24,129 nucleotides of DNA from a virus. Its lineage: Duplodnaviria > Heunggongvirae > Uroviricota > Caudoviricetes. Position 1 is the stretch's first letter, and each line of letters opens with the position of its first letter. Shown in pieces: positions 1 to 24,129 of this stretch. Location: the IMG/VR virus record IMGVR_UViG_2623620491_000014, positions 1-24,129 of that record, one strand, 5' to 3'. The notes under the pieces were generated by a model. That model worked only from the letters and a program-made list of their open reading frames with translations. It ran no database searches and was not told the DNA's origin. Both the position numbers and the translations under genes were made by a program.

Positions 1-1158
1 ATGCTCACCGTTAAGCAGATTGAAGCAGCAAAGCCGAAAGAAAAACCATACCGCCTTCTCGATGGTAATGGCCTGTACCTTTATGTCCCTGTGTCAGGGA
101 AAAAGGTATGGCAGCTTCGCTACAAGATTGACGGTAAGGAGAAAATCCTGACCGTCGGAAAATATCCGCTTATGACTTTGCAAGAGGCAAGGGATAAAGC
201 ATGGACTGCGAGGAAAGACATCTCGGTTGGCATCGATCCGGTAAAGGCGAAAAAGGCTTCGTCTAACAACAATTCCTTTAGTGCGATTTACAAGGAATGG
301 TACGAGCACAAGAAGCAAGTATGGTCAGTAGGCTATGCAACTGAACTTGCCAAAATGTTTGATGACGACATTTTACCCATCATCGGCGGTCTCGAGATTC
401 TGGATATTGAGCCGATGCAACTGCTGGAAGTAATCCGCAGATTTGAAGATCGCGGTGCAATGGAGCGAGCCAACAAAGCCCGCAGAAGATGCGGCGAGGT
501 TTTTCGTTACGCTATTGTCACCGGAAGGGCTAAATATAACCCGGCACCTGACCTTGCAGACGCCATGAAAGGATACCGCAAGAAGAACTTCCCGTTCCTT
601 CCAGCAGACCAGATGCCTGCATTCAACAAAGCACTGGCAACATTTTCAGGAAGTATCGTATCGCTCATTGCGACAAAAGTTTTACGTTATACAGCCCTAA
701 GAACGAAAGAGCTTCGTTCCATGCTATGGAAGAACGTCGATTTTGAAAACAGGATTATCACCATCGACGCCAGTGTGATGAAGGGACGCAAAATTCATGT
801 GGTCCCGATGTCAGACCAGGTGGTTGAACTTCTCACTACGCTAAGCTCAATCACCAAACCAGTATCAGAGTTTGTTTTTGCCGGGCGCAACGATAAGAAG
901 AAGCCAATCTGCGAGAACGCGGTACTGCTTGTGATCAAACAAATCGGCTATGAGGGTCTGGAAAGCGGTCACGGATTCAGGCATGAATTCAGCACGATTA
1001 TGAACGAGCACGAATGGCCTGCTGATGCTATTGAAGTGCAACTGGCACATGCCAACGGCGGATCTGTGCGTGGGATTTACAACCATGCTCAGTATCTCGA
1101 TAAGCGCAGAGAAATGATGCAGTGGTGGGCGGACTGGCTTGATGAAAAGCCTGAGTGA
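1..1158 (+). CDS. int: Tyrosine integrase (P4-type, DUF4102-like N-terminal arm-binding domain)
   Basis: 385-aa ORF with ATG at pos 1. N-terminus MLTVKQIEAAKPKEKPYRLLDGNGLYLYV...GKEK fits the N-terminal domain of P4-family integrases. C-terminus has HGFRHEF and RGIYNHAQY, consistent with the catalytic His/Arg/Tyr region of tyrosine recombinases. Convergent with the tailspike, as in P22-like genomes. Confidence 0.9.
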   Translation: MLTVKQIEAAKPKEKPYRLLDGNGLYLYVPVSGKKVWQLRYKIDGKEKILTVGKYPLMTLQEARDKAWTARKDISVGIDPVKAKKASSNNNSFSAIYKEWYEHKKQVWSVGYATELAKMFDDDILPIIGGLEILDIEPMQLLEVIRRFEDRGAMERANKARRRCGEVFRYAIVTGRAKYNPAPDLADAMKGYRKKNFPFLPADQMPAFNKALATFSGSIVSLIATKVLRYTALRTKELRSMLWKNVDFENRIITIDASVMKGRKIHVVPMSDQVVELLTTLSSITKPVSEFVFAGRNDKKKPICENAVLLVIKQIGYEGLESGHGFRHEFSTIMNEHEWPADAIEVQLAHANGGSVRGIYNHAQYLDKRREMMQWWADWLDEKPE

Positions 1159-1329
1159 TCCACCTTAACAACTATCGAATAGCGAAGAGTCTTAAGTTTC
1201 TTATTTGATCGTAATATTAATATAATTATTCTTAGGAGGTTTTGTGATATACATCACATCAATGATTAATTATGAAAAAAAAACTTATTATGTGATAAAA
1301 TAAATTCTTTATCAAAATTAACAATATAA

Positions 1330-2394
1330 ATGAGTAAACTATATTCTATACAAATGCTTAGAGGTCTAGCAGCCGTTGCTGTTGTTATTGATCACGTCAC
1401 ACATTACATGCATCAATCATTTGATGGTGAATCGTGGTTGTATTCATCTAACATTTATAATGTAGGTGGTTTTGGTGTTGATCTATTCTTTTGTATTAGT
1501 GGATTCATCATGGTAATCACCACATACAACAGGCCAAGCGGGTTGTCACAATCGTTATCGTTCCTGAAAAAGAGATTTTTACGTATATACCCAACATATT
1601 GGTTTTATTGCATAATTACAATTACACTTCCATTAATTCTATATGGTAAAACGGATCTAATATCAAAATACGATTCACTGTTTTTATTACAAAGCTTTTT
1701 GCTTCTTCCAGCAAAAATTTCCGAAAAATCCTTTAGCCCATTTCTTGGGCAGGGTTGGACTTTGCAATATGAATTATATTTTTATATATTATTTGCGCTA
1801 ACAATTATCTTCTTCAAAGGATTCAAAGTTCCATTTTACTGCGCATTGTTAATGATATCGATGTTAATAATTTCACTCAACATAGATATTAATAGTTACG
1901 TAGATTATCTAGCGTCAAATACAATAATAATTGACTTTATTATGGGTATGCTTTCAGCATATTTTTATGTCAAGGTGAGCGCCAAGGGTATTTCAATAAA
2001 CATTAGAACTGGATTAGCATTGGTTGTTATTTTAATATCATTAATTTCATATATTATAATCAACAAATATCCAATTGATAGAATTATTGTTTTTGGGATT
2101 CCGTCTTTCTTCATCGTCACAATATTTTCGCTAATTAATGTTAACCCATGCAGCTTAACAAATAGAGTTATTATCCAGGCTGGAGAGGCATCATACACTA
2201 TTTATCTTGCGCATATGATTTTTATATGGACTGCAATAAAGTATTCTTATCTACTTAAATATCTTTATCCTGACGCAGCAATATTGCTTGTTTCTCTTGT
2301 TATATGCATTTTTTCATACTTGTTATATCTGTCTTTCGAAAAGCCGTTAACGAATAGACTGATGTCTATCCGAAAAAAACAAGCTCAACTCTAA
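1330..2394 (+). CDS. Acyltransferase family 3 integral membrane protein (O-antigen acetyltransferase-like serotype-conversion moron)
   Basis: 354-aa very hydrophobic ORF with N-terminal MLRGLAAVAVVIDHV and FFCISGF motifs typical of acyltransferase-3 (OafA/Oac-like) proteins. Very AT-rich codon usage unlike the rest of the window. Sits between int and tailspike, where P22-like phages carry O-antigen conversion genes. No obvious Shine-Dalgarno before the ATG at 1330; MLRGL at 1354 is an alternative start. Confidence 0.8.
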   Translation: MSKLYSIQMLRGLAAVAVVIDHVTHYMHQSFDGESWLYSSNIYNVGGFGVDLFFCISGFIMVITTYNRPSGLSQSLSFLKKRFLRIYPTYWFYCIITITLPLILYGKTDLISKYDSLFLLQSFLLLPAKISEKSFSPFLGQGWTLQYELYFYILFALTIIFFKGFKVPFYCALLMISMLIISLNIDINSYVDYLASNTIIIDFIMGMLSAYFYVKVSAKGISINIRTGLALVVILISLISYIIINKYPIDRIIVFGIPSFFIVTIFSLINVNPCSLTNRVIIQAGEASYTIYLAHMIFIWTAIKYSYLLKYLYPDAAILLVSLVICIFSYLLYLSFEKPLTNRLMSIRKKQAQL

Positions 2395-2402
2395 GCCATA
2401 AA

Positions 2403-2425
2403 AAGGAGCCTTTTCTTAAGGCTCC
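2403..2425. terminator. Hairpin between convergent acyltransferase and tailspike genes (possible bidirectional terminator)
   Basis: aggagcctt / ttctt / aaggctcct: 9-bp perfect inverted repeat with 5-nt loop, downstream of both stop codons (2392-2394 and 2435-2437). Flanking U-run is short (3 T on the minus-strand side). Confidence 0.4.
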
Positions 2426-2434
2426 TAAGATTAC

Positions 2435-4321
2435 TCAATTGACAATGACTTGACCTGAAGTGGTAATTTCAAACCAGAAATCCCCAGCCGTAGTAACTTT
2501 TGCTCCAGATGCAACCAGTTTGTCTGCTCCATTGATTGACCATGTAAAACTAGGAGATGAAGGATTTTCTCCTGATGTTTCTCCGGCCGATGAAACTAAA
2601 TTAACAATTGGAACTCCTGATATACTTTTATTAACTATCAAAATATATGTTGCAGTTCTTCTTGCTCCAGTGCTCGTTGCCAAGTTACCTACATGAACGA
2701 TAATCATCCCTCCATATGTTGTTTGATAGCCTTGAGTACTTCTTAGTGAACATATCTCTCTTGCTGCACCACCAGTGAAATTTATTGCTGGAAATAAGAT
2801 ATTATGATGCACCCAATCAACATAACCTCCATTAAATGTCTGTACACCTTTAGGAATGGTACAATTGTCTATGGTTGCAATCGCCCCAATACCATCAACT
2901 ATGATATCTGCTGAATTATTATCAGAAGAAGGGCTGGATTTACTATTTCTTATAGTTATATGGTTTTTAACTGAATTTAAACTTTGAACATGCAAAAGGT
3001 TCGCCCATCCGTCCTTTGACATATTATTTGCGTGAGCAAATGCACCTTCTATAACTACATTTTCATTATATCCTTCAGTATCGCTTGATCTCGCTGCAAA
3101 GCCAGCCCTACCATTACTTTCTGCTCCGCATGAAGTCATAACAAAACAATCACAGTTTCTTATGTAATGACCATGATTCACATTTGAATCAGAAGCTGTA
3201 GATATTGCTGAACAATAATTCATATAACCCCATTCCCAGCCATTATTTCCATTTGAGCTTGCATACCCTGAAGTTACTAAAGTGCTAGTATGTTGCTTGT
3301 ATATTGGATTATTGAGATAATCAAATTTAACTCCACTCGCCGAATTAGAACCAGCAATGATATTTCTAATATCAAGAATAAACGTATTACCAAAGTAAAA
3401 CCCATTCTGTGAGGCAGAAAATGCTTTTACTCTATCAATGGTTCCTCTACTTGCAAATTCATGGCTAATACCATGATACCCTCCGCGAGTAGCAAAATCA
3501 TTTAGTTTGAAATACTGTGTTGCTTTAGTGCTAGATGTGCTAGTTGTATTTTTTATTATAGACGCCCAACTTGGCAGATCTGGCCCTGCACGTAATTCTG
3601 ATGTTGAAATTCCTTTCCCTTTAATTTCTATACTATCAATCTGATCTGCCTCATTATTCCAATCATCATAATGGATTTCTGTTGATACTAACCTCACTCC
3701 CCTTGGAAGTTGCAATACACCGCCTTTTGTATTTGCATCAGGCAATGATGATTGTAACTGTGCAATCCCTTCGTTTATGCTTGCTCCTGTATCTACCAGC
3801 GGGTCCCCAAAGTCGTCTGAAGAAATTACCCTTTCAGCAAAAACCTCACGGGAATATTTATTTGTTCCCCCATTTGCTGCATATGGTCCAATTGATGCGC
3901 CAACTGTGCCTTTTCCATAATTAATACTTTCATCATAGCCAACAAGCCCAGCGCCTTCATTGCTATTCAATTCTCCGCGAAGTTGATCAGGGTCATACTT
4001 CAGCACATTAGGAAAATAAAACTGCTGCGCACCATATGCATCATAAACAGCCATAGAATGGCCTTGCACAGTTACGAACTTGGCAATCTGTCCGTTATAT
4101 ACCGGGTAACCAGCAGCGTTAATGATGATTGGTTGCGATACAGGAACGTGAGAGCCGTCTTCGTTCTCCACATAAACCTGAATCTGGTTTTCAGGATTTA
4201 CAGGGTCAGTGTCAATTTTACCGATATAAATTTTGCCATTGGCAACCGCTTTAAAAGAACGAGCCATAGTGAAGAGTTGCGAAGGCATGCTTACCACAAC
4301 ATTGGCTGTAATGTCTGTCAT
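2435..4321 (-). CDS. Tailspike protein: P22 gp9-type N-terminal head-binding domain fused to a distinct receptor-binding/enzymatic domain
   Basis: 628-aa ORF. N-terminal ~115 aa ([10 protein letters not shown]...[32 protein letters not shown]...[12 protein letters not shown]...NVLKYDPDQ) matches the conserved head-binding domain of P22/Sf6/HK620 tailspikes. The remainder is Ser/Thr/Asn/Gly-rich, consistent with a beta-helix. GGAG Shine-Dalgarno upstream of the ATG at 4321. Confidence 0.92.
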
Positions 4322-4380
4322 TTAATTTGCTCCAGATACAAGGAATCGCCGCAGCATGGCTACGGTGAATTTTGGGCATA

Positions 4381-4401
4381 AAAAACCCAGCCGAAGCTGG
4401 G
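4381..4401 (-). terminator. Rho-independent terminator downstream of ant
   Basis: On the minus strand: cccagc-ttcg-gctggg stem-loop followed by a T6 run, placed just 3' of the ant stop (4421-4423) and upstream of the tailspike start. Confidence 0.65.
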
Positions 4402-4420
4402 TCGTTGCGTTGGTTATCTG

Positions 4421-5323
4421 TCAGTAGTTATGTACTGAAGGAGGTAATTCTTTATTCTTAAGTCTCATCCATGCGGAAAGATTCGTTGGTCCGTCTGGCT
4501 CATTAATATCAACATCTCGTGTGTGGTTTATTAAAACGTCTCTCGCCATTCCGATAACATACGAGAATTCATGACCGTAGTCGTAGCATCTGCCGGAATA
4601 GTTCGATTGAATTTGTTTTAGCGCCGGATACAGTTCGCGGAATAATGCCTGTGAGCGGTTGGCATAATCCCATAACCATACAAGGCTGTTTGCTTCTTTT
4701 GCAGAAAGCTCGTTGGTTTTCTTCTCTTGTTTGCCGATAAATTCACCTTCAAGCACTACCCTGTGGATGTACTCTACGGCTTGCGGTATCTGAGATGCAT
4801 CAAGCTCTTCAATACTTTCCACATTGAAACGCTGATGAATCATTGCATAAGCTTCTGGGTACATTAGATGCTTTTTGCTGACTAGCATATTTACAGCATC
4901 ACGAAGCGGAGTCCTGTCATCAACAGATGTTTTCTTACGTGCATTTTCTGCCTTTCCCTTTGTCCAGTAGTCATGCAGTACAGTAAAGCATTCTTCCTGG
5001 TACTGAATCAGTTTATCACGGATGTCAGCACGAACTTTCTCAGGGTTGATGCTGAACAGCCATCCATTTAACTTCTTCAAAGGAAGGCAGAGTAGCTTAC
5101 GAAGCTTCCCATCAGCGGCAACCATGTTCATATGAACACAGTTGAATTTGCTAATCTGCTTCATGAGTTTTGTTTGCTGCGTTGACCAGCTCATTCCAAG
5201 GTTTTCAACGATTGGCTTCATCGCAACATATGCAACTCCGGCAGCCATGGCGGTGATAATTTGCTGACCGTTGAATGGTACGTAAGAGGTGTTCACTGCT
5301 TCTAAAATTGCTATACTATTCAT
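4421..5323 (-). CDS. ant: Antirepressor Ant (P22 immI)
   Basis: Protein from the internal ATG at 5323 ([47 protein letters not shown]...) matches P22 Ant (about 300 aa). GGAG Shine-Dalgarno precedes this ATG. The ORF-track extension to 5389 would run into arc and is not believed. Immediately downstream of arc as in P22. Confidence 0.88.
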
Positions 5324-5391
5324 GTTGGTTTTTCTCCACGGATTTACTGACAACCGAAGCCCTGACTGTTCCCGCAGTTGGGGCTTCAACT
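5315..5391 (+). ncRNA. sar: Putative sar-like antisense RNA, complementary to the ant translation-initiation region (boundaries approximate)
   Basis: In P22 a ~68-nt antisense RNA (sar) is transcribed across the arc-ant intergenic region, opposite to ant. Here that interval (5324-5391) is 68 bp and contains a composite stem-loop (gaagccc ... gggcttc, about 5356-5387). Placed by synteny only; promoter and exact ends not verified. Confidence 0.35.
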
Positions 5392-19376: not shown

Positions 19377-20869
19377 CCAACTCCGCAAGGTATGTTGTAG
19401 CTTGAGTAATCAATCTCTTTAGGATCTTTGATGTCTCGCATCTGTATTGCAAAACGCCTCATCATGTAGCCATAGCGAACAGCAGAAAGGATGTCGTCAT
19501 TTAGCTTGACGATCTTCCCGTTCTCATCGCGGTGATACAGACGAAACTCTTCAAAGAATGGCTCGCAGGTGTTAAATACCTTGAAACGACCGTCGAGCAT
19601 CATGTCGCGTATCTCTGCTATCCCGGGTTCGACCGCATTACCTCCATCAGGCCATGTTGCATGATCTGGCAACATGTCGAACCCAGCTTCGGCGTATTGT
19701 TCCTTGAGCTGAGCGCCGCCTCCCTTTTCGTGCTGATGCCCGTCATGAGGCCAAGCCGTAGGGGTGTTTTTGCTCCATGCTTTAACAGCACTCCATGCCT
19801 CTGTCGCCTTCTTCTGTTTGGCCTTCCAGACGCGAGAAAGATAAATCACGTCCTCGTCTTTATCCCACCAAAGCTGGATATGTGCCTGTGGGTGATCCCA
19901 TCCGAAGTCCATTGCATTGATGACGTAGAAGTGATCAGGACACTCGAACGGCTGACACTTAATCGTCTCTTCCGGTATCTGGAAGATTCGACCACTACCC
20001 ATCGTAGGAATACCGCGAGCACGCGCCTCTCTCTCATGCTCAGGATAAGATGCGATGATTTGCTCTTTCTGTTCGTCTGTGTAGTGCTCAGCGTCGTAGA
20101 TGGTCATGTTGACCACTTTCTGCGACTTGCTGGGATTCTTCAGGAACTTGGTAACAACGTCAGACATCCCCATCAGCGGGGTAAACGTCAGAATTGAGAA
20201 TTGCCCGTATTTGTTGGTACGGGTAAGGCCTTCACCATAAATGCTGTATGGTGGCTCTTCGTCAAACCACACGCCGTGGATTGTGTCACCCTGCCAGCGA
20301 GCGCGGCCTTGCGAGTATGGTTTGAAGTAGCAGATTGAAATGCCATCTTCAACGCCATCAGCCGTGTGATGCTTAACCAGAAGATGATCAACAAGGTTCG
20401 GAAAGAAAGGAGACTTCTTCCAGCTAATGATGTCCTCTTTCGGTATTGAACCGTAGCCCGGCTCATCATTCTCTTCAATACGACCGCACAGGATGCGTTG
20501 AGTCGTTTTGGTTACCGTCTCGTTTGTCTCGCCGCCAATCCAGAAGACAACAGGCTCATAGAAACGCTTACCTTTCCACTCACCGCCATATTTACCATCA
20601 GCAGGATAGCCTTTTGTGCCCGGATAACGCCCTGTAAGGTGAAACGCGACTTCAGCAGCACCAGTAAATGACTTACCAAGCTGGTTACCAGCCATAAAAC
20701 AGCGCTCTGGATAGTCATGCCCGGCGTCGATGAACTCACGCTGTTTGCTGTATGGCGTAAATTCATATAGCAGGTGTGTGTTCCTGTAGCTCTCTTCTTC
20801 TTCGAGTAGCTCGAGCAATTCGATTTGCTCTTCGTCGCTCAGGTTATCAAGAATCGCGTCCAGTTCCAC
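19373..20869 (-). CDS. Terminase large subunit, P22 gp2-type
   Basis: 498-aa [29 protein letters not shown]...[12 protein letters not shown] (Walker A-like) ..., closely matching P22 gp2 as recalled. Starts at GTG and overlaps the TerS 3' end by 23 nt. Confidence 0.92.
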
Positions 20870-21335
20870 GGTTGAATAGCTCCTTGATACGAGAGCGTCG
20901 CTTATCGCGATCTCCCTTATCAGGTGTCACGTCTTCAACTTGCGACTGCTCTTTGAGGCCCAAATCACGGGCGATGATATTAGCGTTGAGAAGGTCAGCG
21001 GCTGCGCCAGAGAATTTCTGGTCGTAGATGATGTCTTCCGCTCGTGATGTGACGTCAGAAAAACCTTCCATTGACCGGAAGGTTCCCCATGTTTGCCTGG
21101 TGATATCAAGGAAGGTACACAATCCTGAAATAGTCATGGCTCGCATCTTAGGGACATTAGCCTTAATTATTTCTCCCTGATATGAAAATACCTTACCCTC
21201 CCATAGCGGGTTATCATCAGCCCACTCGAAGTATTCACAACAAGCAGCCCACAGCGCCTCAGGCGATTCGAATTTAGGGTTTCGCCCATGACTACTGCGG
21301 GCCTCCCAAAATCGGTTGCCCTTTGGTGCTGCCAT
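20847..21335 (-). CDS. Terminase small subunit, P22 gp3-type
   Basis: 162-aa [41 protein letters not shown]..., same length as and recalled as similar to P22 gp3. Directly upstream of TerL. Confidence 0.9.
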
Positions 21336-21414
21336 ATTGATTATTTCCCTTCTGCTTGCTTATCCCATTCATCGCGGAATTTGGATGGGTTGTCGAAACC
21401 TTGAGTTGCCATGT

Positions 21415-21657
21415 TTATGCTCCGGTAGTGAACAGGTCTAACGCTTCCTTCGATTTACGCACCGCTTCGATAGTGCGGGTCGTGATATCTGAATTAGCGC
21501 CGCCTGACTGGAAGTGAATTTTGAATAGCTCAAGCTTCAACTCGTCAGTACCAATGAACTGAAATGCTTCTTCTGCGGCTGCGTTCTGGTTCATGACCAG
21601 CTTGTAAATCTCTAACTGGAATTTCTGTTCTTCAGTCATGGGAATAATCTCTGCCAT
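21415..21657 (-). CDS. Small hypothetical protein (80 aa), same slot and size as P22 orf80
   Basis: 80-aa ORF with ATG start, between the lysis cassette and terminase genes. No function recognised. Confidence 0.6.
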   Translation of the reverse strand: MAEIIPMTEEQKFQLEIYKLVMNQNAAAEEAFQFIGTDELKLELFKIHFQSGGANSDITTRTIEAVRKSKEALDLFTTGA

Positions 21658-21760
21658 TGTTGGCTCCGTTTATCCGTTAAAAGGGATATCAGTTAAGTTA
21701 TCCCGTGTAGGGTATAAGTCATTATCAAAGCCACTCTGTAGGGAATGGCTTTTGTAATAA

Positions 21761-22132
21761 CTACTGTTCGCTTAGCTTCTGCTTCAGCAAGTAACCTTCG
21801 AGCATCCAGATTTTGTTTACAGCATTTTGCCGGGCAATCTTCCGACCAATTTCTGCATCAAAGTTTTCCGGGCTTGCACAGGCACTCTCTCCGGTGACGG
21901 TGAAGCCGTTGCGCAGCACCAGGACGCAGAACGTCAGCAGAGAAAGTGATTCGTGCGGCTGGTAGTTTACCTCTCCGCCAGTATGTTTCGCTTTTATGGC
22001 TTTGCCAAAGGCACCATCCTCTGCTGTGAAATATGCCTCCTGAGCAATAATTCCTTCGATATGGTCTGGCGTAACGCGCGGTGCCGTTTTGCCTTTCTCA
22101 ACGATTTCTTTTTCGATTTGCTGGTCGTTCAT
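21761..22132 (-). CDS. Hypothetical phage protein (123 aa)
   Basis: ATG-initiated ORF with consistent codon usage, between Rha and the 80-aa gene. No confident family assignment from sequence alone. Confidence 0.6.
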   Translation of the reverse strand: MNDQQIEKEIVEKGKTAPRVTPDHIEGIIAQEAYFTAEDGAFGKAIKAKHTGGEVNYQPHESLSLLTFCVLVLRNGFTVTGESACASPENFDAEIGRKIARQNAVNKIWMLEGYLLKQKLSEQ

Positions 22133-22258
22133 AATTATGACCCTGTGGAGTGGTTGCTTGATTAGGATGTCTTTCCATCAGTCCGCCACCACAAAGAATC
22201 TTTTTTGCCATAAGGCTGGAGGTTCATCTTTCAGTGGCTGCCAGTGTTATTTCCCCAC

Positions 22259-22876
22259 TTACTGGCTTGGGTTGTTTCGCGGTACTGCCGTAACTGGTTG
22301 CCCAGAATAAATTCCGGTTTCATTATCAAGCCCACCCGTAGATGGGCTTTGGAATGGTCGCTTTGGCAGTCCGGGGATCGATATTTGCGCCTGCTGCTCA
22401 AGCCTTTCGATTCTTGCTATGAGTTGCGGTTTTTTGATCCTGCCCCAGCGGTTCAGCAAGCGTCCTGACATACTGGCAACATCCTTTTCCTTCATGAACT
22501 CCAGCATTAACTCGTTGTGCTCTCTTTGGTATGAGTGAGCCATCTCCATCAGCCTGTCACGCATCCAATTAAATGCTTTGATAAACGCCTCTTTGATGGC
22601 GGCAGCTTTTTTGCCGGTAAACGACATGATGATGTACATCGCGCCGTCTTTGGAAATTTCATATTCAACATACTGATTACCCTTGTGTTCATAGGTAACC
22701 CGCGAAAAGTTGCTGGTTAGAAATTCATCCGAACAGTCTAGCTTTTCGATTTTCTGAATGATGTGGTGATGCTGCTTGTCGAAGTAAGCTGCTACCTTGC
22801 GGGAGGTTGTGATCACGCGATCACCAGAAACAACCACCATGTCCCGGAAATCGAGATTAGCCAATTGATGATTCAT
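22259..22876 (-). CDS. rha: Rha-family phage regulatory protein (antirepressor-like)
   Basis: From the in-frame ATG at 22876: MNHQLANLDFRDMVVVSGDRVITTSRKVAAYFDKQHHHIIQKIEKL...YEISKDGAMYIIMSFTGKKAAAIKEAFIKAFNWM fits the Rha N-terminal domain pattern. The ORF-track extension to 23119 translates to implausible sequence. Confidence 0.8.
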   Translation of the reverse strand: MNHQLANLDFRDMVVVSGDRVITTSRKVAAYFDKQHHHIIQKIEKLDCSDEFLTSNFSRVTYEHKGNQYVEYEISKDGAMYIIMSFTGKKAAAIKEAFIKAFNWMRDRLMEMAHSYQREHNELMLEFMKEKDVASMSGRLLNRWGRIKKPQLIARIERLEQQAQISIPGLPKRPFQSPSTGGLDNETGIYSGQPVTAVPRNNPSQ

Positions 22877-23218
22877 AGCGTCTTTACCTTTTAGAAAGTG
22901 AGCCTGTCTCACAGAAAAGCCGCCCGAGAGAGGTCGCCACCTATAACGGCATTTCTCAGGCTCGCTTACTGAAAGGCTCTCGTTAATATGCGCGTGAGAT
23001 GCGCTGTGAAATTCAGATATAAAAAGCCCCGCGAATGCGAGGCTAAATCCTGGTATTTGTAATGAACTGGCTCTTATCTCAACGCAGCCCCTTACTGCGC
23101 GCAAGATGCTCAATATCAAGCATCAGCAATGAGATATTTAATCTGGATTCACTCCAGAAGTGATCACCACCCTGTCTACAGAGCCAGATGTGAAGGATGA
23201 TGAGTAAAATTATCGCTA

Positions 23219-23656
23219 TCATCGAAGGCATTGCGTCCTGATGTACTCCTGCAGGTAGTTAACCTGCGCGGTTATCTTGTCGATTCCACTTCGGAGACGG
23301 TAATAATTGAGTTCAGCATCTGCTGTAAGTCTTGGGCTTTCTCCATTGCCCATGCCGCTGGCTCCGGTCGTTGACTTTGCACAGGTGGCGGCGACTTGCA
23401 GGCGCTTACGACCAGCAGAAACATCAGCACGGAGACTTTCGATAGTCGCGTTAGCATCAGCAAGCTCCTTTGTATATCTGGCATCGAGTTCTGCTACATC
23501 ACGTTGACGTTTCTGCATGTCAGCGATAATGGATGCGGCCTTATCGCGCTGCTCTTTGTAGGTGATGGCGTTATCACGGTAATGATTGACCGCCCATGAC
23601 AGGCAGACGATGATGCAGATAACCAGAGCGGAGATAATCGCGGTGACTCTGCTCAT
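23219..23656 (-). CDS. Rz: Inner-membrane spanin Rz (i-spanin)
   Basis: 145-aa ORF; N-terminus [34 protein letters not shown] matches lambda Rz. Start overlaps the R stop (ATGA). Confidence 0.92.
23272..23457 (-). CDS. Rz1: Outer-membrane lipoprotein spanin Rz1 (o-spanin), embedded in the +1 frame of Rz
   Basis: Embedded ORF with signal peptide and lipobox ([20 protein letters not shown]) followed by a proline-rich segment ([13 protein letters not shown]), the characteristic Rz1 architecture. Start chosen at the Met preceding the signal peptide. Confidence 0.8.
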
Positions 23657-24129
23657 ACCTCAATCTCTCTGACCGTTCCGCCAGCCTCTTTGAATTTTGC
23701 AATCAGGCTGTCAGCCTTATGCTCGAACTGACCATAACCAGCGCCCGGCAGTGAAGCCCAGATATTGCTGCAACGGTCGATAGCCTGACGGATATCACCG
23801 CGATCAATCATCGGTAAAGCGCCACGCTCTTTAATCTGCTGTAGTGCAACAGCGTCCTGGCTTTTCGGAGAGAAGTCTTTCAGGCCAAGCTGCTTACGGT
23901 ATGCATCCCACCAACGGGAAAGAAGCTGGTAACGTCCGGCTGCTGTTGATTTGAGTTTTGGGTTTAGCGTGACAAGTTTGCGAGGGTGATCGGAGTAATC
24001 AGTAAATAGATCTCCGCCTACAATGACGTCATAACCATGATTTCTGGTTTTCTGCCGTCCGTTATCAGTTCCCTCTGACCACGCCAGCATATCGAGGAAC
24101 GCCTTACGTTGATTATTGATTTCCACCAT
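23653..24129 (-). CDS. R: Endolysin, lambda R-type lytic transglycosylase
   Basis: 158-aa [42 protein letters not shown]..., near-identical to lambda R as recalled. Its ATG is the last 3 bases of the window, so the holin gene lies just outside. Confidence 0.93.

What the first reader, a model, noticed from the sequence alone, without database searches (positions are those of the whole stretch)
21415..22876. Accessory cluster between lysis and packaging modules: Rha-family regulator plus two small unknown proteins
Three genes (Rha-like 205 aa, unknown 123 aa, unknown 80 aa) sit between Rz and the small terminase, each separated by about 100-bp spacers (21336-21414, 21658-21760, 22133-22258) rather than overlapping like the structural genes. 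Rha-family proteins have been linked to antirepressor or regulatory roles, and this inter-module position often holds host-takeover or anti-defence genes. The 123-aa and 80-aa proteins have no function I can assign.
Basis: partly seen in the sequence, partly recalled or inferred. Interest (0 to 1): 0.4.

Follow-up and report, generated by a model that had tools for sequence, protein, structure and literature searches.

The report
P22-type accessory slot with anti-CBASS sponge
The three genes are real and form the known variable accessory region of P22-like phages; the 123-aa "unknown" belongs to the published Acb4 family of sponge proteins that soak up bacterial immune signals, and the 80-aa one is phage P22's non-essential Orf80, whose function is still unknown.

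Summary
ORFs of 205, 123 and 80 aa lie on the minus strand at exactly the stated coordinates, with spacers of 126, 103 and 79 bp.

The window is the late region of a P22-like (Lederbergvirus) E. coli prophage, and the layout is the classic P22 one (Rz, rha, orf80, gene 3).
- The 205-aa protein is a Rha-family regulator (Phage_pRha + ORF11CD3), 45% identical to P22 Rha.
- The 123-aa protein is a strong member of Pfam PF13876 (homologue of Sf6 gp66). Chang et al. (2024) define this family as Acb4, a tetrameric sponge that sequesters CBASS cyclic dinucleotides. A profile of its homologues hits the solved SPO1 Acb4 structure (E 2.5e-6), and the predicted fold's best PDB match is Acb4.
- The 80-aa protein is DUF2560, which is P22 Orf80 (98.8% identical) and Sf6 gp67 (100%). 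It is reported non-essential and unstudied, and I found no informative fold or profile match.

The "spacers" are a conserved leader carrying two covarying hairpins. The acb4-like gene is a ~405-bp cassette inserted in that leader. P22 carries the pid moron at the same locus, and sister phages carry Tad2-like sponges in the same slot.

Verdict: essentially already known, with low-to-moderate interest.

The parts
23079..23231 (-). 50-aa ORF like Sf6 gene 65, with a hydrophobic N-terminus.
   Evidence: ORF; Sf6 gp65 translation, 49/50 identical; phrog_11822, E 1.4e-37, function unknown. Present in 34 of 69 surveyed loci.
23025..23044 (-). Terminator-like hairpin (8-bp stem with 6 GC pairs, then a T-run) downstream of the lysis cassette and upstream of rha.
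   Evidence: scan hit; the hairpin GCCTCGC..GCGGGGC + T-run is conserved upstream of rha in P22 and APC_JM3.2.
22259..22876 (-). rha: 205-aa Rha-family regulator, with Phage_pRha at residues 23-106 and ORF11CD3 at 115-168. Residues 174-205 are a read-through into the conserved leader.
   Evidence: family hits; 45% identity to P22 Rha, 99% to APC_JM3.2 Rha over residues 1-190; the last ~32 codons align to sequence that is non-coding in Sf6 and Huey.
22133..22357 (-). Conserved ~225-nt leader upstream of the acb4-like gene.
   Evidence: near-identical in Sf6 and Huey, which have no rha upstream; also present downstream of P22 rha; in loci without acb4, its 5' part joins directly to hairpin B.
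22319..22354 (-). Hairpin A (TTCCAAAGCCCATCTACGGGTGGGCTTGATAATGAA), the 5' copy of a repeated stem-loop motif.
   Evidence: covariance model R1, 50.5 bits; this copy was in the training alignment; covariation of the stem; forms in the minimum-free-energy fold.
21761..22132 (-). acb4-like gene: 123-aa PF13876 (N4 Gp49 / Sf6 gp66) protein, a predicted cyclic-dinucleotide sponge. The cassette with its 33-nt 5' UTR spans about 21761-22165.
   Evidence: PF13876, 119.5 bits against a cutoff of 27; PDB 9e4w Acb4, E 0.0062 with the single sequence and 2.5e-6 with a profile; AF2 pLDDT 83.6; the top 12 Foldseek PDB hits are all 9e4w; the paper equates Acb4 with PF13876 and lists Sf6 gp66; cassette junctions.
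21718..21757 (-). Hairpin B (TTACAAAAGCCATTCCCTACAGAGTGGCTTTGATAATGAC), starting 3 nt after the acb4-like stop codon. It is the 3' copy of the motif.
   Evidence: 53.7 bits; 97.5% of cells paired, 4 pairs with changes on both sides, 0 of 500 shuffles reach the covariation score; present ~60 nt upstream of DUF2560 in nearly all related loci, always on the late-gene strand.
21415..21657 (-). 80-aa DUF2560 gene (P22 orf80 / Sf6 gene 67 / HK620 hkbM). Predicted small four-helix protein of unknown function, conserved just upstream of the small terminase.
   Evidence: [quoted passage not shown]
20847..21335 (-). Small terminase (P22 gp3 type). Context only: it marks the start of the packaging module.
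   Evidence: PF16677, 106.7 bits; phrog_606.
23219..23656 (-). Rz i-spanin, with Rz1 embedded at 23272-23484. Context only: it marks the end of the lysis module.
   Evidence: PF03245, 125.4 bits; PF06085, 72.4 bits.

Best explanation
This is the variable accessory region that P22-like phages carry in their late operon, between the lysis cassette and the terminase genes. It holds one gene of known anti-defence type and two long-known, poorly understood genes.

1. The 123-aa protein is an Acb4-family sponge. By analogy with SPO1 Acb4, it should form a homotetramer whose inter-subunit pockets bind cyclic dinucleotides made by CBASS cyclases (3'3'-cGAMP and relatives; for homologues from phages of Gram-negative hosts, also 3'3'-c-di-AMP). 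The CBASS effector then never receives its signal and the infected cell is not killed early.

2. The 205-aa protein is a Rha-type two-domain regulator, sitting in the same position as P22 rha. P22 rha is a late-operon gene whose product harms phage growth when the host lacks IHF. Its molecular target is unknown.

3. The 80-aa protein is P22 Orf80 (DUF2560), a small helical protein dispensable for lytic growth and lysogeny in the laboratory. My low-confidence guess is a host-interaction or counter-defence accessory acting around the onset of DNA packaging, rather than a packaging component.

All three genes are co-oriented with the late operon and have no promoter-like sites of their own. They are most likely made from the antiterminated late transcript.

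Shown here: gene calls, family membership, homology to the solved Acb4, cassette structure and mosaicism.
Shown in the literature: Acb4 biochemistry, and the non-essentiality of P22 orf80.
Inferred: tetramer formation, ligand binding and anti-CBASS activity of this particular protein; expression timing; any role for Rha or DUF2560.
For: Genome identity: megablast places the region in Lederbergvirus phages (Sf6, HK620, CUS-3, APC_JM3.2) and E. coli prophages. P22 has the same order: Rz, rha, orf25, orf80, orf59c, gene 3.

acb4-like gene:
- PF13876 at 119.5 bits, E 8.6e-35.
- phmmer hit to PDB 9e4w 'anti-CBASS 4 (Acb4)', E 0.0062. A profile of 56 homologues gives E 2.5e-6.
- AF2 model pLDDT 83.6. 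The 12 best Foldseek PDB hits are all 9e4w chains, probability up to 0.87.
- Chang et al. (bioRxiv 10.1101/2024.12.30.630793) state that Acb4 belongs to PF13876, that all 8 tested homologues bound 3'3'-cGAMP, and that homologues from phages of Gram-negative hosts also bound c-di-AMP. Their Table S3 lists Sf6 gp66, which is 74% identical to the window protein.
- The stacking and hydrophobic pocket residues are kept: F48->F77, F62->F91, I66->I95, L89->L120, and N63->D92, where the contact is through the backbone.

Slot biology: in 69 related loci the Rz-to-DUF2560 interval varies from 307 to 1916 bp, and acb4 is present in 16 of them. Other occupants include Tad2-like PF11195 proteins, and pid in P22.

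Rha; P22 and phi80 Rha phenotype as summarised in PMC4936722.

DUF2560. Synteny upstream of three different small-terminase types holds even at ~39% identity.

No sigma-70-like promoter lies in any spacer on the minus strand.
Against: - Five of the 11 ligand-contacting residues of SPO1 Acb4 are not conserved: K36->L65, E49->T78, Y57->A86, T70->I99, K81->M110. Ligand specificity therefore cannot be transferred.
- The structural match is weak for a monomer model: Foldseek E about 0.06, TM 0.35-0.5.
- The protein has a ~27-residue hypervariable insertion that SPO1 Acb4 lacks.
- I could not run a multimer prediction. I could not establish whether any of the eight tested homologues belongs to this Sf6 gp66 clade.
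- Late-operon expression is inferred, not shown, and might be late for intercepting a signal.
- For Rha, no IHF-consensus site was found upstream at up to 1 mismatch. The phage also has a canonical Ant (4421-5389), so an antirepressor role is not needed.
Confidence: 0.75

Rival explanations
1. The 123-aa protein has the Acb4 fold but has diverged to bind a different signal, such as cyclic trinucleotides, Thoeris ADPR-derived signals or type III CRISPR cyclic oligoadenylates. Alternatively it has a non-sponge role, such as RNA binding through its dsRBD-like core.
For: The base-specific and phosphate contacts of SPO1 Acb4 (K36, E49, Y57, T70, K81) are replaced. Members of other sponge families (Tad1, Tad2) bind signals of more than one defence system. 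The Acb4 monomer resembles dsRNA-binding domains. There is a hypervariable insertion at residues ~38-62.
Against: All eight diverse PF13876 homologues tested by Chang et al. bound 3'3'-cGAMP. The aromatic and hydrophobic pocket residues are conserved. The family consensus at the changed positions (C, V or A, D) is shared by other sequences from that paper's Table S3 list, including ones from phages of Gram-negative hosts, that I aligned. I could not tell which listed homologues were actually tested.
Confidence: 0.15
2. The cluster is mainly a lysis-lysogeny regulatory unit. Rha acts as an antirepressor, and the two small proteins are its partners or modulators.
For: PHROG and NCBI labels for Rha relatives include 'anti-repressor'. 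The three genes are adjacent.
Against: The three genes assort independently across 69 loci: same Rha 11, acb4 16, both only 4, with DUF2560 constant in the sampled set. The phage has a canonical immI Ant. The 123-aa protein belongs to a family with a demonstrated, unrelated biochemical function. The genes sit in the late operon, downstream of lysis genes.
Confidence: 0.05
3. DUF2560 is a packaging accessory factor that works with the small terminase, for example in pac recognition or terminase assembly.
For: It sits immediately upstream of the small terminase in P22-like phages, and does so even in ~39%-identical relatives that have other TerS families. It is very strongly conserved: the 80 loci the scan retained as best matches, out of 478, are identical or nearly identical at protein level.
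Against: P22 orf80 can be replaced by a resistance cassette without loss of lytic growth or lysogeny. It accompanies at least three unrelated TerS types, which argues against a specific partnership. Other genes are often inserted between it and TerS, with spacings from 35 to 800 bp. No similarity to any packaging family was found.
Confidence: 0.15

Closest known systems
Acb4 (anti-CBASS 4) of Bacillus phage SPO1, PDB 9E4W; family PF13876 (N4 Gp49 / Sf6 gp66)
   Same: Same Pfam family, well above threshold. Significant profile homology over the beta2-beta3-alpha4 core. The predicted fold's best PDB match is Acb4. The aromatic and hydrophobic pocket residues are conserved. It is a small phage protein. 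Sf6 gp66, 74% identical, is listed in the Acb4 family table.
   Different: 123 aa against 96 aa, with a hypervariable ~27-residue insertion after the first strand. Five ligand-contact residues differ. Only ~20% identity to SPO1 Acb4. It is a temperate enterobacterial podovirus gene embedded in the late operon. No biochemistry exists for this protein.
Phage P22 late-region accessory locus: rha (orf201), orf25, pid, orf80, orf59c
   Same: Same position (Rz to gene 3). A Rha-family gene comes first and orf80/DUF2560 comes last (98.8% identical). The same conserved leader and hairpin are present. The locus is known as a moron locus whose genes are non-essential.
   Different: P22 Rha is only 45% identical. 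P22 has pid, on the opposite strand with its own promoter and terminator, inserted 3' of hairpin B. The window has the co-oriented acb4 cassette inserted 5' of hairpin B. The window lacks orf59c.
Shigella phage Sf6 genes 65-66-67(-68)
   Same: Homologues of genes 65, 66 and 67 appear in the same order with the same leader. gp65 is 49/50 identical and gp67 is 100% identical.
   Different: Sf6 has no rha, while the window has rha inserted between gene 65 and the leader. gp66 differs in its central segment. The window lacks gene 68.
Tad2 (PF11195) and Sequestin (PF21825) viral sponges
   Same: They are small oligomeric phage sponges. Tad2-like genes occupy this same slot in sister phages such as Huey. 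Acb4 is often fused to Tad2 or Sequestin in other phages.
   Different: No window protein matches PF11195. DUF2560, although small, helical and adjacent to acb4, shows no relationship to Sequestin (hhalign probability 0.2%).

Membership tests
Acb4 / PF13876 (123-aa protein) | Match to the family HMM above Pfam's gathering score | tested here: met
   119.5 bits against a cutoff of 27, E 8.6e-35, full-length profile match 1-82/82. All 120 listed homologues carry PF13876.
Acb4 / PF13876 (123-aa protein) | Sequence homology to the experimentally characterised founder (SPO1 Acb4, PDB 9e4w) | tested here: met
   phmmer E 0.0062. A profile of 56 homologues gives E 2.5e-6 over residues 66-107 against chain residues 38-79.
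Acb4 / PF13876 (123-aa protein) | Fold: three-stranded antiparallel sheet flanked by N-terminal helices and a long C-terminal helical arm | tested here: inconclusive
   The AF2 model (pLDDT 83.6) has strands at 29-36, 67-73 and 78-81 and a long helix at 93-122. The top 12 Foldseek PDB hits are all 9e4w, but with E about 0.06 and TM 0.35-0.5. A monomer model of a protein whose chains interlock in a tetramer is expected to superpose poorly.
Acb4 / PF13876 (123-aa protein) | Homotetrameric pinwheel assembly with pockets at the interfaces | not testable with these tools
   No multimer prediction is available here. Chang et al. report confident AF3 tetramers for all eight homologues they modelled.
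Acb4 / PF13876 (123-aa protein) | Conservation of the cGAMP-contacting residues of SPO1 Acb4 (K36, F48, E49, V56, Y57, F62, N63, I66, T70, K81, L89) | tested here: inconclusive
   Kept or conservatively replaced: F77, C85, F91, D92, I95, L120. Changed: L65, T78, A86, I99, M110. The pocket framework is kept, but the specificity contacts are not.
Acb4 / PF13876 (123-aa protein) | Binds CBASS cyclic dinucleotides and rescues phage from CBASS | not testable with these tools
   Requires EMSA or ITC and plaque assays.
Rha family (PF09669 / TIGR02681) (205-aa protein) | N-terminal Phage_pRha domain above the curated cutoffs | tested here: met
   PF09669 at 83.5 bits (cutoff 29.9) and TIGR02681 at 75.6 bits (cutoff 45.95). 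phrog_518 'Rha-like transcriptional regulator', E 1.8e-80.
Rha family (PF09669 / TIGR02681) (205-aa protein) | Positional and sequence equivalence to P22 rha (late operon, directly after the lysis genes) | tested here: met
   Same position. 45% identity over 170 residues to P22 Rha.
Rha family (PF09669 / TIGR02681) (205-aa protein) | Rha phenotype: product inhibits phage growth in IHF-deficient hosts, and the gene is regulated by IHF | tested here: inconclusive
   No WATCAANNNNTTR match at up to 1 mismatch in the 200 bp upstream of rha. That is only a crude test of the regulatory part. The phenotype itself needs genetics.
DUF2560 / P22 Orf80 (80-aa protein) | Match to PF10834 and near-identity to P22 Orf80 and Sf6 gp67 | tested here: met
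   147.7 bits against a cutoff of 25. 98.8% to P22 Orf80 and 100% to Sf6 gp67.
Sequestin / PF21825 (considered for the 80-aa protein) | Profile similarity to Sequestin family members | tested here: not met
   hhalign of the DUF2560 alignment against seven Sequestin sequences gives probability 0.2%, E 0.35. No PF21825 hit even at E up to 10.
Classical moron (autonomous promoter + gene + terminator), such as P22 pid | Own promoter upstream and intrinsic terminator downstream of the inserted gene | tested here: not met
   No sigma-70-like site in any spacer on the minus strand, and no hairpin with a T-run after the acb4-like or DUF2560 genes. Hairpin B lacks a T-run. The scan is a simple consensus scan, so weak promoters could be missed.

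The most novel reading that the evidence does not exclude
The conserved ~225-nt leader with its two covarying stem-loops may be a dedicated cassette-insertion and RNA-processing platform in the late operon of P22-like phages. Counter-defence or host-manipulation cassettes (acb4, and pid in P22) are swapped in on either side of hairpin B. The hairpins would act at the RNA level, as processing or stabilising signals, to set the expression of the inserted genes. DUF2560, the strongly conserved gene it leads into, would itself be an uncharacterised counter-defence factor, perhaps shielding the onset of packaging from terminase-sensing immunity.
Probability: 0.15. Interest if true: 0.5.

Novelty: already known. 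Interest (0 to 1): 0.22.

Why it matters
The main value is practical. RefSeq still names this gene product 'Gp49 family protein'. It occurs full-length in 320 of 5,426 complete E. coli genomes, while DUF2560 occurs in 899. So a sizeable fraction of E. coli prophages probably carry an unannotated anti-CBASS sponge.

The survey also shows that this late-operon interval in P22-like phages holds at least two published sponge families (Acb4 and Tad2-like) as well as the pid moron. It is therefore a sensible place to look for further counter-defence genes, including the other small unknown ORFs found there and DUF2560 itself.

None of this overturns current understanding.

Tried and rejected
- DUF2560 as a Sequestin-type sponge. 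It is small, helical and adjacent to acb4, and Sequestin is often fused to Acb4. Rejected: hhalign probability 0.2% and no PF21825 hit.
- PDB sequence and profile searches found nothing, using both the narrow and the broadened DUF2560 alignments.
- An exhaustive HMM search found only 72 representative clusters, almost all small stand-alone proteins. The two apparent fusions look like read-through or miscalled ORFs.
- Rfam found no known RNA family in 20800-24129, even at E up to 1.
- PADLOC found no meaningful defence-system hit for any of the four proteins.
- IHF consensus upstream of rha: no match.
- Independent promoters in the spacers: none in the consensus scan.
- PDB homologue for Rha: none.
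- The 'anti-CRISPR protein' labels in phage Huey come from an automated annotation. My reading is that the label on the Tad2-like gene reflects DUF2829/AcrIIA7 homology (from memory, not tested here). I could not find a basis for the same label on the gp66 homologue, and I do not rely on it.
Full report
**Observation**

The ORF list shows minus-strand ORFs at 21415-21657 (80 aa) and 21761-22132 (123 aa). That start is the one annotated for the 99%-identical gene in phage APC_JM3.2.

The neighbours are Rz/Rz1 (23219-23656 and 23272-23484) and a P22 gp3-type small terminase (20847-21335), followed by the large terminase.

Two things were missed.
- The 342 bp between Rz and rha hold a 50-aa ORF (23079-23231). 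It overlaps the Rz stop codon and is 49/50 identical to Sf6 gp65.
- That ORF is followed by a terminator-like hairpin at 23025-23044. The hairpin is conserved upstream of rha in P22.

**What the window is**

Megablast places the region in Lederbergvirus (P22-like) phages and in E. coli prophages. The rest of the window fits a P22-like prophage: integrase, a low-GC O-acetyltransferase, tailspike, a canonical Ant antirepressor and a DNA-transfer protein.

P22 itself has the order Rz, Rz1, rha, orf25, orf80, orf59c, gene 3. Sf6 has genes 63/64 (Rz/Rz1), 65, 66, 67 and 68. The cluster is thus the well-known accessory interval of this phage group.

**The three proteins**

*Rha (205 aa).*
- It has a Phage_pRha domain (residues 23-106) and an ORF11CD3 domain (115-168), and it passes TIGR02681.
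- It is 45% identical to P22 Rha.
- P22 and phi80 Rha are late-operon products that are harmful to phage growth in IHF-deficient hosts (Henthorn & Friedman 1995, as summarised in PMC4936722).

*The 123-aa protein.*
- It matches PF13876 (N4 Gp49 / Sf6 gp66) at 119.5 bits and is 74% identical to Sf6 gp66.
- A plain phmmer search of the PDB hit 9e4w, 'anti-CBASS 4 (Acb4)', at E 0.0062. A profile of 56 homologues raised this to 2.5e-6.
- The AF2 model (pLDDT 83.6) has Acb4 chains as its 12 best Foldseek PDB matches. The scores are modest, though: E about 0.06, TM 0.35-0.5.
- Chang et al. (bioRxiv 10.1101/2024.12.30.630793) state that SPO1 Acb4 belongs to PF13876. They describe it as a tetramer that binds four 3'3'-cGAMP molecules (KD about 157 nM) and blocks CBASS.
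- In the same paper, all eight tested family members bound 3'3'-cGAMP. Those from phages of Gram-negative hosts also bound c-di-AMP, and none bound c-di-GMP. Their Table S3 lists Sf6 gp66.

*The 80-aa protein.*
- It matches DUF2560 at 147.7 bits. It is 98.8% identical to P22 Orf80 and 100% identical to Sf6 gp67.

**How far the Acb4 assignment goes**

I mapped the SPO1 ligand contacts onto the window protein.
- The stacking and hydrophobic framework is kept: F48->F77, F62->F91, I66->I95, L89->L120. N63, which contacts the ligand through its backbone, becomes D92, and V56 becomes C85.
- The base-specific and phosphate contacts are changed: K36->L65, E49->T78, Y57->A86, T70->I99, K81->M110.
- There is also a ~27-residue segment (about residues 38-62) that SPO1 Acb4 lacks. 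It is hypervariable even among homologues more than 70% identical.

Family membership is therefore solid and a sponge mechanism is likely, but the ligand spectrum of this protein is an inference. I could not test tetramer formation.

**DUF2560**

The family is small: 72 representative clusters among 1.84 billion proteins. The idea that it might be a Sequestin-type sponge was tested and rejected.

Its one robust property is synteny. It lies upstream of the small terminase in P22-like phages, and this holds even in ~39%-identical relatives that use other TerS families. It is dispensable in P22 and accompanies unrelated terminases. For those reasons I favour an accessory or host-interaction role over a packaging role, with low confidence.

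**Anatomy of the slot**

I surveyed 69 IMG/VR loci that contain both Rz and a DUF2560 gene identical or nearly identical to the window's. This sample is biased, because it consists of the best 80 tblastn matches.
- The Rz-to-DUF2560 interval ranges from 307 to 1916 bp.
- acb4 is present in 16 of the 69 loci, the same rha allele in 11, and both in 4.
- Other occupants are divergent Rha proteins, KilA-N+ORF11CD3 proteins, Tad2-like PF11195 proteins (also in phage Huey), DUF551, a T5orf172 nuclease-like protein and several unknowns.

- The ~225 nt upstream of the acb4 start (22133-22357) are nearly identical in Sf6 and Huey, where they are non-coding. They are also present downstream of P22 rha.
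- As a result, residues 174-205 of the window's Rha are a read-through into this leader. Other ORF11CD3 proteins from this slot end soon after an 'IPGL' motif, which lies at about residues 170-173 in the window's Rha.

Comparing loci with and without acb4 shows that the acb4 gene plus a 33-nt 5' UTR, about 405 bp in all, is inserted at a precise junction ('...GGAAAGACATC|'). In P22 the pid moron is inserted on the other side of the adjacent hairpin. pid lies on the opposite strand and has its own promoter and terminator (PMC8835761).

**The hairpins**

A 36-40 nt stem-loop (TTACAAAGCC...GGCTTGATAATG) occurs twice in the window, at 22319-22354 and 21718-21757.
- Across 16 distinct variants, the 10-bp stem is paired in 97.5% of cells.
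- Four pairs show changes on both sides, and there are G-U intermediates. None of 500 shuffles reaches the observed covariation score, and slid controls pair in only 33-49% of cells.
- A covariance model finds only these two copies in the 24-kb window. Both were in the training alignment.
- The same model finds 106 copies in 67 related loci, all on the late-gene strand and usually two per locus.

There is no T-run after either hairpin, and Rfam has no match. I read these hairpins as RNA-level elements, for processing or stability, or as recombination boundary sequences. Their function is not established. Boundary sequences at module junctions have been described for HK620 and Sf6 (from my own knowledge: Clark et al. 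2001; Casjens et al. 2004).

**Expression**

All genes are co-oriented with the late operon. The consensus scan finds no sigma-70-like promoter in any spacer on the minus strand. Late co-transcription is therefore the default inference. It is not shown.

**Comparison and novelty**

Each element is already described.
- The rha/orf80 layout is known from P22, and genes 65-67 from Sf6.
- PF13876 is identified as the Acb4 family in the 2024 preprint.
- The locus is a known moron site (pid).

Three things seem not to be spelled out in the papers I read: that the acb4 gene is a precisely bounded cassette, that covarying hairpins flank it, and that Tad2-like sponges occupy the same slot. These are incremental points.

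The annotation lag is real. RefSeq calls the product 'Gp49 family protein'. The gene is present full-length in 320 of 5,426 complete E. coli genomes, and DUF2560 in 899.

**Verdict**

- Observation: confirmed.
The anti-defence guess holds for the 123-aa gene.
- Novelty: already known.
- Interest: low to moderate (0.22).

Noticed in passing
window 21718-21757 and 22319-22354 (- strand); also L001-L091: A repeated 36-40 nt stem-loop motif (TTACAAAGCC..GGCTTGATAATG) with compensatory base changes across variants. It flanks the leader and the acb4 cassette. There are 106 copies in 67 related loci, all on the late-gene strand. It has no T-run and no Rfam match, and its function is unknown.
   Followed up: yes
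window 22259-22357 (- strand): The last ~32 codons of the rha ORF (residues 174-205) are a read-through into a leader that is non-coding in Sf6, Huey and P22. The natural Rha C-terminus is probably right after the 'IPGL' motif. In APC_JM3.2 the 99%-identical gene is annotated as ending at codon 172.
   Followed up: yes
window 23079-23231 and 23025-23044 (- strand): A 50-aa ORF 49/50 identical to Sf6 gp65 (hydrophobic N-terminus) overlaps the Rz stop codon. It is followed by a terminator-like hairpin that is conserved in P22.
   Followed up: partly
L002 997-1497 (phage Huey); IMG/VR loci such as L026: Sister P22-like phages carry a Tad2-like (PF11195, Thoeris anti-defence 2) protein of 166-173 aa in the position held here by rha. 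Huey has Tad2-like and Acb4-like genes side by side, both auto-annotated 'anti-CRISPR protein'.
   Followed up: partly
window 21761-22132, protein residues ~38-62: The segment between the first and second strands of the Acb4-like protein is hypervariable, with indels, among homologues that are otherwise more than 70% identical. The N- and C-terminal parts are nearly invariant. This could reflect diversifying selection or mosaic recombination inside the gene.
   Followed up: no
window 21341-21412 (- strand): A 23-codon ORF ([23 protein letters not shown]) fills the 79-bp spacer between DUF2560 and the small terminase. In other loci this interval is 35-800 bp and can hold extra genes (Sf6 gene 68, P22 orf59c). 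I did not test whether the short ORF is conserved.
   Followed up: no
window 22098-22211 (- strand): A 37-aa ORF (MAKKILCGGGLMERH...) starts in the conserved leader and overlaps the acb4 start. The same N-terminal codons occur in loci without acb4 and in P22. It has no obvious ribosome-binding site and is probably not a gene.
   Followed up: partly
window 1-5389: The left end holds an integrase (1-1158), a low-GC (31-37%) O-acetyltransferase gene (1330-2394) that is probably a serotype-conversion moron, a tailspike (2435-4321) and a canonical Ant antirepressor (4421-5389).
   Followed up: partly
L088 2954-3753; L091 3010-4415: Distant DUF2560 relatives (~39% identical) still sit between the lysis genes and the terminase. 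In L088 the gene is 13 bp upstream of a TerS of a different type. In L091 a 202-aa Ala/Thr-rich ORF lies between it and a gp3-type TerS, with a copy of the hairpin motif just before the TerS.
   Followed up: partly
E. coli complete genomes: The acb4-like gene is annotated only as 'Gp49 family protein' in RefSeq. It is present full-length in 320 of 5,426 genomes, and DUF2560 in 899 of 5,426.
   Followed up: yes
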